A stretch of 64,000 nt of DNA from the NCBI GenBank assembly GCA_030429765.1, contig JAUIER010000001.1, positions 65,014 through 129,013 of the forward strand. Reading direction: 5' to 3'. This DNA is from a bacterium (GTDB lineage: Bacteria; Omnitrophota; Gorgyraeia; Zapsychrales; Zapsychraceae). Below, one piece after another: positions 47,980-53,558 of this stretch (positions within the stretch are counted from its first letter, which is position 1; every line of letters begins with the position of its first letter). The notes under the pieces were generated by a model, which was given only the letters and a program-made list of their open reading frames with translations, did no database searches and had not been told where the DNA came from. The position numbers and the translations under genes were made by a program.

Positions 47980-48388
47980 ACCTAAATTATAAACCTCCTG
48001 CAAGTATTTGCCATGAGTAGACATACGCATCCGGGTGGGTAGTTTTACCTATCCGTCTGGAGGCCGGATATTTAGCATTTGCCAAGTTCCAGAGCATCGA
48101 CTATACTTATAGACTGTTCTTTAAAAATTTGGGGGTGATCTGGTTCTGCTTCGTTTCCGACATTTTGAATTGGAGTTTTGAAATGTCGTTAACTTCGCAG
48201 GAACTAGTTCGAAGCAGAAATTCTTCGAAGCTCCTAGAGTATTTTCTGATCAAGCATAGAAGATTCTAAGCTTGATCATCCGTTCTTTAAAAATTTGGGG
48301 GTGATGTGGTTCTGCTTCGTTTCCGACATTTTGAATTGGAGTTTTGAAATGTCGACAACTTCGCAGGAACTAGTTCGAAGCAGAAATT

Positions 48389-48432
48389 CTTCGAAGCTCC
48401 CGGTTTTTTATATTGTGTAGCGAAGAAGATTA
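48389..48432 (+). repeat. 45-bp direct repeat flanking the GIY-YIG gene (left copy)
   Basis: CTTCGAAGCTCCCGGTTTTTTATATTGTGTAGCGAAGAAGATTAT. Near-identical right copy at 48796-48840. Confidence 0.7.
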
Positions 48433-48494
48433 TAGAGCTATCCTTAATCTATGCATATGCGCATAGCTCCAAAAGGTAGAGAGGAGAATGTGCC

Positions 48495-48752
48495 ATGCAG
48501 TATGTATACGTGTTGGTTAGCCAAGTAAATAAATCAAAAATCTATATTGGCAGAACTGAAGATCTAGATTCTCGCTTTAGACAGCACAATTCTGGTCAAG
48601 GCGATTATTCAAGGCGCTGGAAACCTTGGCAAATTGAGACCTATATTGCCTTTTCATCAGAATCATTGGCAGTCAAATTTGAAAAGTATCTCAAGGGTGG
48701 ATCGGGCTTTGCTTTTCTAAAGAAAAGATTTTTACCTGAGATTGATTCTTAA
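48495..48752 (+). CDS. free-standing GIY-YIG nuclease-domain protein (YhbQ/UPF0213-like, 85 aa)
   Basis: Motifs YVYVL...KIYIGRTEDLDSRFRQHNSG match the GIY-YIG catalytic core, including the conserved Arg. GAGGAG ribosome-binding site 8 nt upstream. Confidence 0.75.
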   Translation: MQYVYVLVSQVNKSKIYIGRTEDLDSRFRQHNSGQGDYSRRWKPWQIETYIAFSSESLAVKFEKYLKGGSGFAFLKKRFLPEIDS

Positions 48753-48795
48753 ATATATTGAAGTTTGCAATCCTTGTGCTCGAAGATTCAATCCT

Positions 48796-48840
48796 TCGAA
48801 GCTCCCGGGTTGTATTATTGTGTAGCGAAGAAGATTATTT
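48796..48840 (+). repeat. 45-bp direct repeat flanking the GIY-YIG gene (right copy)
   Basis: CTTCGAAGCTCCCGGGTTGTATTATTGTGTAGCGAAGAAGATTAT. Confidence 0.7.
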
Positions 48841-49023
48841 GTTCTTTAAAAATTTGGGGGTGATCTGGTTCTGCTTCGTTTCCGACATTTTGAATTGGAG
48901 TTTTGAAATGTCGACAACTTCGCAGGAACTAGTTCGAAGCAGAAATTCTTCGAAGCTCCTAGAGTATTTTCTGATCAAGCGTAGAAGATTTTAAGCTTGA
49001 TCATCCGTTCTTTTAAAATTTGG

Positions 49024-49682
49024 GGGTGATGTGGTTTCGACTTGAGATGTTTGAGTCTTAGGTGGCATGCCGAGGAAGTCTGGTTGGCCTCGTTAATCAT
49101 CCGGACAAACAATAAATGGTAACGATTCAACGTTAACATTCGCAGACTTTGAAAGAGAAACTGAGAATTCAGTGGCTCCTCAAGGTTTCGCACCTGTATT
49201 AGCTTAAGAATAAGCTAATCCCTTATACAAATCATGTCTGTGGATTTGTATAAGGACCTTTACAGACTAGCGCAGTTGAGGTCTAGGCGACTGTTGCGAA
49301 ATTTTTAGACTGGCCGTCGGTAATCCTGTGCATTGGAGTGCAGGCGGTAAGATTAATAAATGTACTAAGCATGTAGAGGCTTAAGGCCGGCTCGTTAAGG
49401 ACCGGGGTTCGATTCAAAGGAGTCGACTTTTGGAGTAATCCAGAATGCTAAACTTGGCTTACATCAAGGAAGCCCAATTCTCAAACCTTATCTTGCGAAG
49501 GGTAATCTTGAGGGGTGAAAGCCCTGCAGAGACTTCTCCGGAAGGAGAGATGAAAGGCTCTACCAATATTGGTAAATCTATGCCTTTCATAATACGCCAA
49601 GCTCCTCGACGAATGTTGAGGATGAAGAGATAGTCCATGCTGATCGGGTAACGATCAGATTAGTGTCCCCGCACCTCCACTT
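49024..49682 (+). ncRNA. ssrA: tmRNA (SsrA) gene interrupted by an intron-like insertion in the T-loop
   Basis: 5' end GGGGGUGAUGUGGUUUCGAC resembles the E. coli tmRNA 5' end. PK1 region UGCCGAGG...GGCCUCG is present. Tag frame ends ...APVLA with UAA-GAA-UAA. Near the 3' end is CUAAGCAUGUAG. The T-arm is CGGGGUUCGAU | insertion | UCCCCG, followed by the acceptor strand CACCUCC-A-C, which pairs with the 5' end including a G3:U pair. Confidence 0.85.
49416..49667 (+). other. candidate group I intron (about 252 nt) within the tmRNA T-loop
   Basis: The 5' exon ends in U. Intron GUCGA (49424-49428) pairs with exon UCGAU, giving a U:G wobble at the splice site (P1). The GGA immediately 5' of it pairs with exon 2 UCC (P10). 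There is a GACU...AGUC P7-like pairing with a UCUCC-GGAA-GGAGA hairpin between (P8-like), a CUGAUCG-GGUAA-CGAUCAG hairpin (P9-like) and a terminal G at 49667. No ORF lies inside. Confidence 0.65.
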
Positions 49683-49691
49683 TAAATTAAA

Positions 49692-49743
49692 GGCCTTGTA
49701 AATTGTTGTTTTATAATAATTTACAAGGCCTTTTGTTTTTTAA
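49692..49743 (+). terminator. intrinsic terminator of ssrA
   Basis: 15-bp hairpin AAGGCCTTGTAAATT...AATTTACAAGGCCTT followed by a T-rich run. Confidence 0.8.
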
Positions 49744-49755
49744 AATGTTTTAGTG

Positions 49756-49806
49756 CCCAAACAGTGCCCAAATCAATCCAAAACATCGGTAAACAAATCT
49801 AACACT
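49756..49806 (+). repeat. intergenic repeat R (GTGCC-N5-GGTGCC ... AAAACA.CGGTAAACAAA.CTAACA), copy 1
   Basis: Three roughly 50-bp copies with over 80% identity at 49756, 50818 and 52456, plus a short fourth copy at 52694. All are intergenic in the island downstream of ssrA. Confidence 0.7.
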
Positions 49807-52889: not shown

Positions 52890-53558
52890 TTGAGAGAGGC
52901 GATGAAAAAATTATTTGGATTATGTTTCACGACGATACTAGTCTTCTGTATGCACTCCTCGGCTTTTGCAGTTATCGTGTATGACTCTTTTGGTCCGGGT
53001 CAAACTTACAGTTTTGGGCCTATATATCCGGTCGAAAATTATTTCACTTCTAGTGTTGGATCAAATAAACAACATGCAGATCAGTTTATACCAGCTGTGG
53101 ATGTTAATCTTGGTCAGATAGATGTAGCAGTTCAGGATGCTTTTCAAGTTAATAAAGTCGATCTAACTATTATGACTGACAGTTTGGGGGTGCCCGGATC
53201 AATTGTAGAGTCGTTCAGCCTACAGGATGCGATGGCCCGCTCAAATACGCCTAATGCATTTGTTACGGCCACATCCATTGTCAGGCCGGTACTGCAGGCA
53301 GGTGTTCCATATTGGTTGGTAGTGGCCGCTCCCGAGAACTTAGTTCAAATAGCGTATTTTATGAACGATCAGGATATATTCGGGCAGCATGCCGTGCGTC
53401 AAAACGGGGGGCCTTGGGAGGTAAGTAGAGAAATTCAGGGTGTTTTTAGAATCACAGGAGATGCAGTAAATGCGAGTGCCGTTCCCGAACCAACCACCGT
53501 ACTCTTATTTGGCACAGGAATGATCGGCGCCGCTTTACGACGTAGAAAACAAGCGTAG
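52890..53558 (+). CDS. PEP-CTERM sorting-domain protein
   Basis: Signal peptide. C-terminus VPEPTTVLLFGTGMIGAALRRRKQA, which is PEP, a TM helix and a basic tail. Confidence 0.8.
   Translation: MREAMKKLFGLCFTTILVFCMHSSAFAVIVYDSFGPGQTYSFGPIYPVENYFTSSVGSNKQHADQFIPAVDVNLGQIDVAVQDAFQVNKVDLTIMTDSLGVPGSIVESFSLQDAMARSNTPNAFVTATSIVRPVLQAGVPYWLVVAAPENLVQIAYFMNDQDIFGQHAVRQNGGPWEVSREIQGVFRITGDAVNASAVPEPTTVLLFGTGMIGAALRRRKQA

What the first reader, a model, noticed from the sequence alone, without database searches (positions are those of the whole stretch)
48389..48840. Free-standing GIY-YIG nuclease gene inside the repeat array, bracketed by 45-bp direct repeats
The 85-aa ORF at 48495-48752 has the complete GIY-YIG catalytic core (YVYVL...KIYIGRT..R..H..G) and a strong ribosome-binding site, but no DNA-binding extension. 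It is flanked by near-identical 45-bp direct repeats (48389-48432 and 48796-48840) that are themselves the variant tail of the 166-bp unit. It therefore looks like a small cassette inserted into one repeat unit. GIY-YIG enzymes are the classic homing endonucleases of group I introns, and free-standing versions target intron-less alleles. The ORF-less group I intron in ssrA lies only 660 bp downstream, so a functional link is plausible.
Basis: partly seen in the sequence, partly recalled or inferred. Interest (0 to 1): 0.65.

Follow-up and report, generated by a model that had tools for sequence, protein, structure and literature searches.

The report
Mini nuclease-and-hairpin element beside tmRNA gene
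The small nuclease gene is real, but it is not an intron-homing enzyme. It belongs to a widespread and apparently undescribed family of tiny nuclease genes that sit, with their own hairpin repeats, right next to tRNA and tmRNA genes, and the 166-bp repeats around it are copies of that family's hairpin element.

Summary
An intact 85-aa GIY-YIG ORF (48495-48752; Pfam E 4e-15) lies in a repeat array 270 bp upstream of an intron-containing ssrA. It is bracketed by direct repeats that match at 41 of 45 positions.

The intron-homing reading is not supported. By sequence and by predicted fold the protein belongs to the minimal Slx1/UPF0213-like lineage, not the I-TevI lineage. Related Omnitrophota carry a homologue beside intron-less ssrA.

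In 48 of 55 informative metagenome loci a homologue lies a median 127 nt downstream of a tRNA or tmRNA gene, on the same strand. Between them sits a conserved structured element, with an "L" hairpin and an "R" hairpin (GAA/GAA internal loop). This element has no Rfam family.

A covariance model built only from other loci finds the window's three 166-bp units (E about 1e-6) and nothing else significant in the 64 kb. So the array consists of ORF-less copies of the nuclease's own element.

The element is often duplicated around the ORF, sometimes forms tandem arrays, and is sometimes followed by a copy of the tRNA 3' end. Close paralogues follow different tRNAs.

The best reading is a mobile nuclease-plus-hairpin element, analogous to Ssn/NTS but distinct from it, that targets tRNA and tmRNA flanks. 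The mechanism is inferred, not shown.

The parts
48079..48107 (+). Sigma-70-like promoter (TTGCCA-17-TATACT) upstream of the whole array. It is the probable ssrA promoter.
   Evidence: 10 of 12 consensus matches. Read by eye, a TATACT -10 box with a plausible -35 hexamer lies upstream of ssrA in L009 and upstream of the mini-unit in L010. No consensus promoter was found inside the units.
48116..48143 (+). Unit A head: a copy of the pre-tmRNA leader (GTTCTTTAAAAATTT) plus tmRNA nt 1-13 (GGGGGTGATCTGG).
   Evidence: aligns with the true ssrA start at 49007-49034.
48144..48265 (+). Unit A element: L hairpin, X'b segment, R hairpin. No ORF.
   Evidence: Covariance model R2, built without the window: 33.0 bits, E 8.5e-6, full length.
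48282..48309 (+). Unit B head: leader copy plus tmRNA nt 1-13 (GATGTGG variant).
48310..48431 (+). Unit B element directly upstream of the ORF. L is about 48310-48372 (TTCTGC-TTCG...CTTCG-CAGGAA), X'b is 48375-48386 (CGAAGCAGAA), and R is 48388-48431 (TTCTTC-GAA-GC...GC-GAA-GAAGA).
   Evidence: R2: 38.1 bits, E 6.4e-7, full length. Fold.
48432..48494 (+). Leader of the nuclease ORF, with ribosome-binding site AGAGGAG at 48480-48486.
48495..48752 (+). 85-aa single-domain GIY-YIG nuclease gene of the Slx1/UPF0213-like lineage, with the C-terminal motif FEKYLKxGSGxAFLKK.
48780..48838 (+). Second, partial copy of the element after the ORF: a TCGAAG-N8-CTTCGA hairpin plus the R hairpin at 48793-48836. 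This is the right-hand direct repeat.
   Evidence: 41 of 45 identical to 48389-48433. Weak partial R2 hit at 48793-48834.
48841..48868 (+). Unit C head: leader copy plus tmRNA nt 1-13 (GATCTGG).
   Evidence: 48840-49036 matches 48115-48311 at 192 of 197 positions.
48869..48990 (+). Unit C element (L, X'b, R). No ORF.
   Evidence: R2: 36.2 bits, E 1.6e-6.
49022..49680 (+). The true ssrA gene. Exon 1 is about 49022-49413, the group I intron in the T-loop is about 49414-49665, and exon 2 is about 49666-49680. It lies in the same transcription unit as the element but is not part of it.
   Evidence: Rfam hits. Splice boundaries are inferred from the U(-1)/omega-G rule and from rebuilding the T-loop as TTCGATT.
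49689..49733 (+). Intrinsic terminator of ssrA.

Best explanation
The ORF is the protein gene of a small repeat-associated genetic element.

Shown:
- It belongs to a large family of about 80-aa stand-alone GIY-YIG nucleases of the Slx1/UPF0213-like lineage. These genes lie 50-300 nt downstream of a tRNA or tmRNA gene, on the same strand.
- The gap is filled by a conserved structured element that starts at the first base after the tRNA 3' end. It has three parts: an L hairpin (stem, UUC/UUC internal loop, stem), a segment X'b complementary to the 5' arm of L, and an R hairpin (stem, GAA/GAA internal loop, stem). L is the mirror image of R.
- The element is frequently repeated after the ORF, sometimes amplified into tandem ORF-less arrays, and sometimes followed by a 14-20-nt copy of the tRNA 3' end.
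- Near-identical nucleases follow different tRNAs.
- The window's 166-bp units are this element. Unit B carries the ORF between two R hairpins. Units A and C have no ORF.
- Here the element lies in the 5' leader of the ssrA transcription unit rather than its 3' flank. Each unit begins with a copy of the pre-tmRNA leader plus tmRNA nt 1-13.

Inferred:
- The nuclease recognises its L and R hairpins, probably extruded in single-stranded DNA, as Ssn nucleases recognise NTS hairpins. It cuts nearby.
- Host repair or recombination then spreads the element to other tRNA or tmRNA flanks and expands or contracts arrays.
- Expression depends on read-through from the strong tRNA or tmRNA promoter.
For: Protein:
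- Pfam GIY-YIG E 4e-15. Catalytic Y, Y, R, H and E are conserved.
- 3740 clusters (at 50% identity) match at E<=1e-3 and 534 at E<=1e-10.
- The AlphaFold2 model has pLDDT 94. Its best solved-structure matches are UPF0213 and SLX1.

Context:
- L009, L010 and L011 (Omnitrophota) have an intron-less tmRNA followed by the gene.
- 48 of 55 metagenome loci with at least 400 bp upstream have a tRNA or tmRNA within 700 bp upstream on the same strand, median spacer 127 nt. Only 1 of 68 has a tRNA within 700 bp downstream.
- The closest homologues, at 65, 62 and 59% identity, follow tRNA-Arg, tRNA-Glu and tRNA-His with the element between.

Element:
- In 19 GC-rich copies 97% of cells are paired, 10 of 20 pairs show compensatory changes, and 0 of 500 shuffles reach this.
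- In 10 AT-rich copies the L helices are 100% paired.
- 129 of 130 hits of covariance model R1 lie within 700 nt of a GIY ORF.
- No Rfam family matches.
- Model R2, built without the window, hits the three window units at E 6e-7 to 9e-6. Nothing else in the 64 kb falls below E 0.1 apart from mirror-strand and partial copies.

Mobility:
- Element copies lie on both sides of the ORF in L031, L037, L047, L068, L076 and L090.
- Duplicates of the tRNA 3' end occur in L032, L046, L064 and L082.
- Arrays: 8 copies in L054 and 4-5 in L092.
- Nucleases 76-87% identical follow Ile/Val, Val/Tyr, Ala/Arg and Ala/tmRNA genes.

Precedent: Ssn nucleases are single-domain GIY-YIG proteins whose genes are flanked by the hairpin repeats they bind, cutting the single-stranded DNA just upstream (PMC11893778).
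Against: - No biochemical data exist for this subfamily. Substrate (ssDNA, dsDNA or RNA), cut site and any role in mobility are all inferred.
- GIY-YIG enzymes hydrolyse DNA and cannot transfer strands, so a transposition-like step has no known catalyst.
- The window lacks the canonical junction. Module L is preceded by tmRNA nt 1-13, not by a tRNA 3' end, and I cannot explain this.
- Base pairs are almost all Watson-Crick, and G-U versus A-C counts do not decide between RNA and DNA.
- The 80 loci are the best-scoring of 564 hits, not a random sample.
- Covariance-model E-values are rough because calibration was short.
Confidence: 0.6

Rival explanations
1. The ORF is a free-standing GIY-YIG homing endonuclease that works with the ORF-less group I intron in ssrA. 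It would cut intron-less ssrA alleles and so drive intron spread.
For: The gene lies about 660 bp from the intron in the same transcription unit. Weak N-terminal matches to homing-endonuclease profiles: TIGR01453 E 0.002, phrog_7168 E 0.0016. In other family loci the duplicated tRNA 3' ends begin in the T-loop or T-stem, the region the intron interrupts.
Against: Homologues accompany intron-less ssrA in L009-L011 and 10 further intron-less tmRNAs, as well as about 40 ordinary tRNAs. TIGR01453 scores 18 bits against a cut-off of 56. The protein has no DNA-binding domain. Its fold is closest to SLX1 and UPF0213, not I-TevI. The homing-endonuclease genes detected so far in tmRNA introns are LAGLIDADG, in 36 of 883 introns.
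Confidence: 0.04
2. The gene and its structured leader serve tRNA or tmRNA biology at the RNA level. The element would be an RNA processing or regulatory signal in the tRNA 3' trailer, and the nuclease would act on RNA precursors. In this view the gene is a host gene, not a selfish element.
For: Orientation is strictly the same as the tRNA, and the element starts at the first base after the tRNA 3' end. The structure shows covariation. In the GC-rich set G-U pairs outnumber A-C pairs 12 to 2. A prokaryotic Slx1-like domain fused to a TrmH-type tRNA methyltransferase led to a published suggestion of a role in RNA metabolism (PMC1564403).
Against: Close paralogues follow different tRNAs, genes occur in tandem, ORF-less arrays exist, and tRNA 3' ends are duplicated. 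All of these are hallmarks of a mobile element. The gene has decayed in L012 and is absent downstream of ssrA in the window. Characterised relatives act on DNA: SLX1 on DNA, Ssn with no RNA activity, and YhbQ is annotated as an exodeoxyribonuclease. In the AT-rich set A-C pairs outnumber G-U pairs 7 to 3.
Confidence: 0.15
3. A housekeeping YhbQ/UPF0213-type DNA-damage nuclease that happens to lie in a locally duplicated ssrA leader. The repeats would then be unrelated to it.
For: The best solved-structure sequence match is UPF0213 BH0048 (E 7e-5). E. coli YhbQ aligns over 98% of the protein at 32% identity.
Against: The family HMM separates members (98-124 bits) from a UPF0213-like protein (48 bits). 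No NCBIfam YhbQ-type model matches. The repeats are the element that accompanies this gene family: 129 of 130 R1 hits lie next to a family gene, and R2 finds the window units.
Confidence: 0.03
4. A domesticated locus guardian. The nuclease and its hairpins occupy tRNA and tmRNA 3' ends, the favourite integration sites of phages and genomic islands, and interfere with integration or recombination there. This would parallel Ssn/NTS limiting recombination of transforming DNA.
For: The element lies exactly at tRNA or tmRNA ends. Ssn/NTS modulates the integration of incoming DNA. There are weak PADLOC hits to candidate defence proteins (PDC-S14, E 1e-5, GIY motif region only). The family is rare in viral contigs, with 3 loci in IMG/VR.
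Against: There is no direct evidence. In L012 other genes sit between ssrA and the decayed gene, which is compatible with an insertion at ssrA despite the element. The PADLOC hits cover only about 35 residues.
Confidence: 0.1

Closest known systems
Ssn family of site-specific ssDNA nucleases with NTS/SRM hairpin repeats (SsnA of Neisseria meningitidis; Chenal et al. 2025, PMC11893778)
   Same: Both are single-domain GIY-YIG proteins of about 80-100 aa. In both the gene is bracketed by copies of a hairpin-forming repeat, as in NTS-ssnA-NTS. In both the repeats also occur without the gene and in clusters. Both are widespread across phyla.
   Different: The repeat differs. It is a bipartite L/R element with UUC/UUC and GAA/GAA internal loops, not a simple CGTC-hairpin SRM. 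The published SRM pattern has no hit next to any family gene. The protein subfamily differs: a Sphingobium gene flanked by true SRMs scores 32 bits on the family HMM against 98-124 bits for members, and the C-terminus is FEKYLKxGSG, not EKRLKxWxRxWK. No N. gonorrhoeae sequence matches even at E<=10. The location at tRNA/tmRNA flanks is not mentioned in that paper.
Phage T4 SegB, a free-standing GIY-YIG homing endonuclease in the tRNA gene cluster (PMC2330249; PMC13096335)
   Same: Both are GIY-YIG nuclease genes embedded among tRNA genes. SegB cuts tRNA-region DNA of a related phage genome and is copied with its flanks. By its abstract, it has recently been linked to segmental amplification of anti-defence loci, which echoes the tandem arrays here.
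   Different: SegB is a phage enzyme of the I-TevI/Seg lineage, whose members pair the nuclease domain with a separate DNA-binding domain (my knowledge). This protein is a cellular 85-aa minimal domain of the Slx1-like lineage, with dedicated hairpin repeats.
SLX1 and prokaryotic stand-alone Slx1-like proteins (UPF0213: BH0048 1zg2, EF2693 1ywl; E. coli YhbQ)
   Same: They are the closest solved structures and sequences. They share the minimal GIY-YIG core. SLX1 is a structure-specific nuclease for branched DNA (entry titles), which fits hairpin or cruciform substrates.
   Different: Identity is only 29-34%. This protein has no RING domain and no SLX4 partner. The YhbQ/UPF0213-like genes seen here (E. 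coli next to yhbS, Cetobacterium) lie among ordinary genes with no element recorded beside them, whereas this family moves among tRNA flanks with a companion element.
REP/BIME repeats with RAYT (TnpA-REP) transposases, and IS200/IS605
   Same: A small nuclease gene is flanked by inverted hairpin modules that also multiply as ORF-less copies. Hairpins are recognised in single-stranded DNA. The Ssn authors draw the same analogy.
   Different: Those enzymes are HUH/Y1 transposases that form covalent intermediates. A GIY-YIG hydrolase cannot. REPs are scattered through intergenic regions (my knowledge), not tied to tRNA 3' ends.
Integrase-borne genomic islands and prophages that insert into tRNA/tmRNA 3' ends
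   Same: Both target the 3' end of tRNA or tmRNA genes. Both duplicate the terminal 14-20 nt, so that an intact gene is kept.
   Different: No integrase is present. The whole element is about 0.4-0.5 kb, with one 80-aa nuclease.

Membership tests
GIY-YIG nuclease superfamily (Pfam PF01541) | Profile match above the curated cut-off | tested here: met
   56.3 bits against a cut-off of 22.6, E 4.1e-15.
GIY-YIG nuclease superfamily (Pfam PF01541) | Catalytic residues (Tyr of GIY, Tyr of YIG, Arg, His, Glu) and the beta-beta-alpha-alpha-beta-alpha fold | tested here: met
   Y5, Y17, R27, H31 and E63 are invariant or at least 90% conserved. The AlphaFold2 model has pLDDT 94 and matches GIY-YIG structures.
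GIY-YIG homing endonucleases (I-TevI/Seg type; NCBIfam TIGR01453) | Match to the group I intron endonuclease model at its cut-off | tested here: not met
   18.1 bits against a cut-off of 56.05, covering only residues 3-33.
GIY-YIG homing endonucleases (I-TevI/Seg type; NCBIfam TIGR01453) | C-terminal linker plus DNA-binding domain that gives site specificity | tested here: not met
   The protein is 85 aa, and the GIY-YIG domain fills it.
GIY-YIG homing endonucleases (I-TevI/Seg type; NCBIfam TIGR01453) | Association with an intron or an intron-less target allele | tested here: not met
   Homologues accompany intron-less tmRNA and tRNA genes. The homing-endonuclease genes detected in tmRNA introns are LAGLIDADG.
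YhbQ/UPF0213 (housekeeping stand-alone GIY-YIG) | Close sequence clustering with YhbQ/BH0048-type proteins | tested here: not met
   1zg2 E 7e-5, 26 bits. YhbQ is 32% identical, 39 bits. A UPF0213-like protein scores 48 bits on the family HMM against 98-124 for members. No NCBIfam model matches.
YhbQ/UPF0213 (housekeeping stand-alone GIY-YIG) | Conserved, non-mobile genomic context | tested here: not met
   Paralogues 76-87% identical follow different tRNAs. Tandem copies, arrays and duplicated tRNA ends also occur.
Ssn family (cd10448, PMC11893778) | Single-domain GIY-YIG protein of about 94 aa | tested here: met
   85 aa, single domain.
Ssn family (cd10448, PMC11893778) | Best CDD hit cd10448, and blastp E<1e-10 with 75% coverage to N. 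meningitidis SsnA (CAX49033.1) | not testable with these tools
   Neither CDD nor the SsnA sequence is available. Proxy tests: there is no tblastn hit in two NTS-rich N. gonorrhoeae chromosomes even at E<=10. An SRM-flanked Sphingobium homologue gives 30% identity, 33.5 bits. Both point to non-membership.
Ssn family (cd10448, PMC11893778) | Published SRM motif within 500 bp on both sides of the gene | tested here: not met
   0 hits in the window and next to any family gene. There are 5 scattered hits in 475 kb of loci. Positive control: SRMs flank the Sphingobium gene in L116 on both sides.
Ssn family (cd10448, PMC11893778) | Gene bracketed by hairpin-forming repeats that also occur elsewhere without the gene | tested here: met
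   R hairpins at 48388-48431 and 48793-48836. ORF-less units A and C. Other loci show the same.
Ssn family (cd10448, PMC11893778) | Site-specific cleavage of single-stranded DNA only | not testable with these tools
   Needs biochemistry.
tRNA/tmRNA-flank GIY-YIG plus L/R element (family defined here) | Protein scores with members on the family HMM and has the C-terminal FEKYLKxGSGxAFLKK motif | tested here: met
   123.6 bits. The window sequence is itself a row of the alignment A8 behind this HMM, so its score is not independent. L009-L011, which are not in A8, score 108-119 bits. The motif is present.
tRNA/tmRNA-flank GIY-YIG plus L/R element (family defined here) | L-X'b-R element directly upstream of the ORF | tested here: met
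   R2, built without the window, hits 48310-48431 at 38.1 bits, E 6.4e-7, full length.
tRNA/tmRNA-flank GIY-YIG plus L/R element (family defined here) | Element abuts the 3' end of a complete tRNA or tmRNA gene on the same strand | tested here: not met
   In the window L follows a copy of the ssrA leader plus tmRNA nt 1-13, and the complete ssrA lies downstream. The window has no tRNA gene. The gene is still adjacent to ssrA and on the same strand.

The most novel reading that the evidence does not exclude
A previously undescribed class of minimal mobile element. It consists of one roughly 80-aa Slx1-like GIY-YIG nuclease plus a bipartite, mirror-symmetric hairpin element (L/R, with GAA/GAA loops). 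It homes to the 3' ends of tRNA and tmRNA genes across bacterial phyla, regenerates the tRNA end on insertion, rides on tRNA promoters and spawns ORF-less arrays. In this Omnitrophota genome it has colonised the ssrA leader instead. The T-loop intron of ssrA may incidentally mask the element's usual target at the gene's 3' end.
Probability: 0.4. Interest if true: 0.8.

Novelty: new variant of a known kind. Interest (0 to 1): 0.62.

Why it matters
Three reasons.

First, thousands of small "GIY-YIG nuclease family" or "UvrC-like" hypothetical genes would gain a concrete, testable identity. They would be nuclease-plus-hairpin elements tied to tRNA and tmRNA genes.

Second, it would add a kind of tRNA-end-targeting element that has no integrase. 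It would also extend the recently discovered Ssn/NTS principle, in which a minimal nuclease recognises its own flanking hairpins, to a separate lineage with a different recognition module.

Third, the L/R hairpins are a conserved structured motif absent from Rfam. Each nuclease and hairpin pair is a candidate sequence- or structure-specific nuclease tool.

For genome annotation, it explains repeat arrays and contig breaks next to tRNA genes.

Tried and rejected
- Exact-protein look-ups for the window ORF and for P0001 found nothing on record, and cluster membership gave no names.
- ARAGORN misses the window's ssrA because of the intron. Rfam finds it.
- The published SRM pattern gave no hit near the gene.
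- My own loose regular expression for the R hairpin was no better than chance, with 11 hits against 3-12 in shuffles. I dropped it in favour of covariance models.
- A rigid stem-scanner and an automatic two-domain RNAfold parser misplaced many elements. I replaced them with hand-chosen seeds.
- The GC-rich model R1 hit the AT-rich window units only weakly, at E about 1-2. A second model from AT-rich and intermediate loci was needed.
- Literature searches for GIY-YIG together with tmRNA, tRNA genes, 'downstream of tRNA' or 'adjacent to tRNA' found no description of this arrangement.
- tblastn against plasmids at E<=1e-3 found nothing.
- 90 kb of N. gonorrhoeae sequence searched for ssnA held no GIY-YIG ORF. 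Two NTS sites on sphingomonad plasmids had no nuclease gene beside them.
The afdb50 library was unavailable.
- G-U versus A-C counts did not settle whether the element works as RNA or DNA.
- I considered and rejected the idea that each unit carries its own ssrA promoter. The only consensus promoter lies upstream of the whole array.
Full report
**1. What is in the window**

The ORF at 48495-48752 (+) encodes 85 aa, preceded by AGAGGAG 8 nt upstream. It matches Pfam GIY-YIG at 56.3 bits (cut-off 22.6, E 4e-15). The catalytic Tyr, Tyr, Arg, His and Glu are conserved in the family alignments.

The ORF is bracketed by direct repeats. 48389-48433 and 48794-48838 match at 41 of 45 positions, and the 59-nt versions are 85% identical.

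Three 166-bp units surround it: A, B (whose tail is the left repeat) and C. Each begins with a copy of the pre-tmRNA leader plus tmRNA nt 1-13.

The true ssrA starts at 49022. A group I intron interrupts its T-loop (Rfam tmRNA 122 bits, Intron_gpI 50.9 bits).

The genome is a Candidatus Omnitrophota. SmpB is 61-71% identical to those of four Omnitrophota MAGs, and the neighbouring genes run in the same order in L009 (smpB, a TetR-like ORF, a GST-like ORF, two minus-strand ORFs, ssrA).

**2. What kind of GIY-YIG protein it is**

Sequence matches to solved structures are UPF0213 BH0048 (E 7e-5) followed by SLX1. A confident AlphaFold2 model (pLDDT 94) matches UPF0213 and SLX1 (TM about 0.68, E about 1e-3). 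It matches UvrC and I-TevI far more weakly (E 0.2-0.9).

The intron-endonuclease model TIGR01453 scores 18 bits against a cut-off of 56.

In the classification of Dunin-Horkawicz et al. these minimal prokaryotic proteins form the 'Slx1, non-eukaryote' group. That group is paralogous to the UvrC and homing-endonuclease lineage (PMC1564403).

The family is large: 3740 clusters (at 50% identity) at E<=1e-3 and 534 at E<=1e-10.

**3. Context in relatives**

In L009, L010 and L011 a homologue (43-46% identical) lies 170-370 nt downstream of an intron-less ssrA. L012 keeps only a decayed remnant.

The closest homologues in the protein databases (59-65% identical) lie just downstream of tRNA-Arg, tRNA-Glu and tRNA-His.

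A metagenome scan seeded only by the peptide FE[KR]YLKx[GPS]SG returned 80 loci. Of the 55 with at least 400 bp upstream, 48 have a tRNA or tmRNA gene within 700 bp upstream on the same strand. These are 16 Ala, 10 tmRNA, 5 Ser, 3 Val, 3 Tyr and others, with a median spacer of 127 nt. Only 1 of 68 has a tRNA within 700 bp downstream.

Many short contigs begin inside the tRNA or inside the spacer. Only three family loci occur in 2.9 million viral contigs.

**4. The companion element**

The spacer is not random. Directly after the tRNA 3' end comes a conserved element rich in CTTCG and CGAAG words. It has three parts.

- L is a stem, a UUC/UUC internal loop and a second stem.
- X'b is complementary to the 5' arm of L.
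- R is a stem, a GAA/GAA internal loop, a short stem and a loop.
- L is the reverse-complement form of R, so the element is mirror-symmetric.

On 19 GC-rich copies the named structure is 97% paired. Ten of 20 pairs show compensatory changes, 0 of 500 shuffles reach this, and slid controls pair at only 36-45%. On 10 AT-rich or intermediate copies the two L helices are 100% paired, with five compensatory positions.

No Rfam family matches the element. Covariance model R1 found 130 copies in 86 loci, and 129 of them lie within 700 nt of a family ORF.

**5. The window's repeats are this element**

Model R2 was built from ten other loci, without the window. It hits 48310-48431, 48869-48990 and 48144-48265 full length at 38, 36 and 33 bits (rough E 6e-7 to 9e-6).

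Nothing else in the 64 kb falls below E 0.1, apart from mirror-strand hits of the same units and the partial copy after the ORF.

So the order upstream of the ORF (L, X'b, R, leader, ORF) is the family's canonical order. The '45-bp direct repeats' are two R hairpins.

**6. Signs of mobility**

- In L031, L037, L047, L068, L076/L077 and L090 a second element copy follows the stop codon. In L040, L046 and L064 the ORF sits between L and R.
- In L032, L046, L064 and L082 a 14-20-nt copy of the tRNA 3' end follows the element. I estimate the chance of such a match at about 2.5e-4 per locus.
- ORF-less tandem arrays occur: 8 copies in L054 and 4-5 in L092. Tandem gene copies occur in L079.
- Nucleases 76-87% identical follow different tRNA species.

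An array with the gene embedded, as in the window, is therefore a family trait.

**7. The window's peculiarity**

The only consensus promoter (TTGCCA-17-TATACT, 48079-48107) lies upstream of the whole array. TATACT -10 boxes can also be read upstream of ssrA in L009 and upstream of a single partial unit in L010. The units and the ORF therefore lie in the 5' leader of the ssrA transcription unit.

Each unit starts with the leader plus tmRNA nt 1-13, fused to L.

The segments 48115-48311 and 48840-49036 match at 192 of 197 positions and flank the part that carries the ORF.

I cannot explain why a 5' piece of ssrA replaces the usual tRNA 3' end. Possible routes are insertion at nt 13-15 with a long duplication, an internal deletion of an upstream ssrA copy, or recombination through the repeat.

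**8. Relation to known systems**

The nearest concept is Ssn/NTS. These are single-domain GIY-YIG nucleases that bind the hairpin repeats flanking their own genes and cut the single-stranded DNA just upstream (PMC11893778). That paper never mentions tRNA.

Membership in Ssn is not supported by the tests available.

- The published SRM pattern has no hit beside any family gene.
- As a positive control, a Sphingobium plasmid gene has SRMs on both sides. It scores 32 bits on the family HMM, against 98-124 bits for members and 48 bits for a UPF0213-like protein.
- Two NTS-rich N. gonorrhoeae chromosomes, filed as plasmids in the collection, give no hit even at E<=10. The best plasmid-collection hit is E. 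coli YhbQ, at 32% identity and 39 bits.
- CDD assignment and comparison with SsnA itself could not be run.

**9. The intron link**

In the enlarged tmRNA database all 883 intron-form sequences have the intron in the T-loop. Only 36 carry a homing-endonuclease gene, and these were detected by homology to LAGLIDADG enzymes (PMC11915505).

Given the intron-independent distribution of this family, the proposed partnership is not supported.

One speculative connection remains. The duplicated tRNA ends in other loci begin in the T-loop or T-stem, which is where the intron splits the window's ssrA. The 3' flank of that ssrA is unoccupied.

**10. Verdict**

Shown:
- an intact minimal GIY-YIG gene;
- membership in a large family tied to tRNA and tmRNA flanks;
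- a conserved, covarying L/R element;
- identity of the window's repeats with that element;
- genomic signatures of mobility.

Inferred:
- the nuclease recognises the hairpins, probably as single-stranded DNA;
- cleavage followed by host repair spreads and amplifies the element;
- the gene is expressed by read-through from the tRNA or tmRNA promoter.

The RNA-level alternative is not excluded, because G-U versus A-C counts are inconclusive.

Noticed in passing
window 49022-49680: ssrA is of the intron form. A group I intron of about 252 nt with no protein match sits in the T-loop, so ARAGORN misses the gene. This fits the known intron-form tmRNA class (883 sequences, PMC11915505), although that paper's text does not mention Omnitrophota. 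The four related MAGs have intron-less ssrA.
   Followed up: partly
window 49750-49773 and L012 13458-13478: A shared motif (TTAGTGCCCAAA, and GTGCCCA repeated) lies just downstream of ssrA in the window and in L012, two genomes that lack the nuclease gene right after ssrA. It may be the junction of something inserted at the ssrA 3' end.
   Followed up: no
L012 2401-2428 and 5487-5514: Two canonical NTS/SRM-type hairpins (for example TGTCATTCCCGCGAAAGCGGGAATCTCC) flank aceE in an Omnitrophota MAG. Classical Ssn-type repeats therefore also occur in this phylum, separately from the L/R element.
   Followed up: partly
L010 2835-2915: A single partial unit lies between the promoter and ssrA of a related genus. 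It reads leader-like GTTCTTTCAAATTTCA, then GGGGTGAT, fused to TCTGCTTCG...CGAAGCAGGAA. The fusion of the tmRNA 5' end to the element is therefore either older than the window's lineage or recurrent.
   Followed up: partly
L054 2101-2591; L092 356-837; L079 2721-3228: There are eight tandem ORF-less element copies upstream of the nuclease gene in L054 and four or five between the tmRNA and the gene in L092. L079 has two tandem nuclease genes, 91% identical, downstream of a tmRNA.
   Followed up: partly
L012 13469-15152 and 16239-16400: Two tandem pairs of paralogous small ORFs (88 or 69 aa plus 147 aa) lie between ssrA and a decayed remnant of the nuclease gene. This looks like an insertion at the ssrA 3' end.
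   Followed up: no
L004 1396-1507 (also L005-L008): The 58%-identical homologue P0005 has the full L/R element directly upstream, but ARAGORN finds no tRNA gene. This is one of the few family loci without a recognisable tRNA.
   Followed up: partly
L102 1622-2005: A more distant homologue (P0006, 40% identical) has a tRNA-Arg about 50 nt downstream rather than upstream, and no element was detected. The arrangement may differ in outlying branches of the family.
   Followed up: no
plasmids collection: NZ_CP119140.1, NZ_CP119142.1: Two complete 2.17-Mb Neisseria gonorrhoeae chromosomes are filed as plasmids in PLSDB, with almost no annotation.
   Followed up: no
window 52890-53558: This ORF ends in a PEP-CTERM-like sorting signal (VPEPTTVLLFGTGMIGAALRRRKQA). 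It is unrelated to the finding.
   Followed up: no
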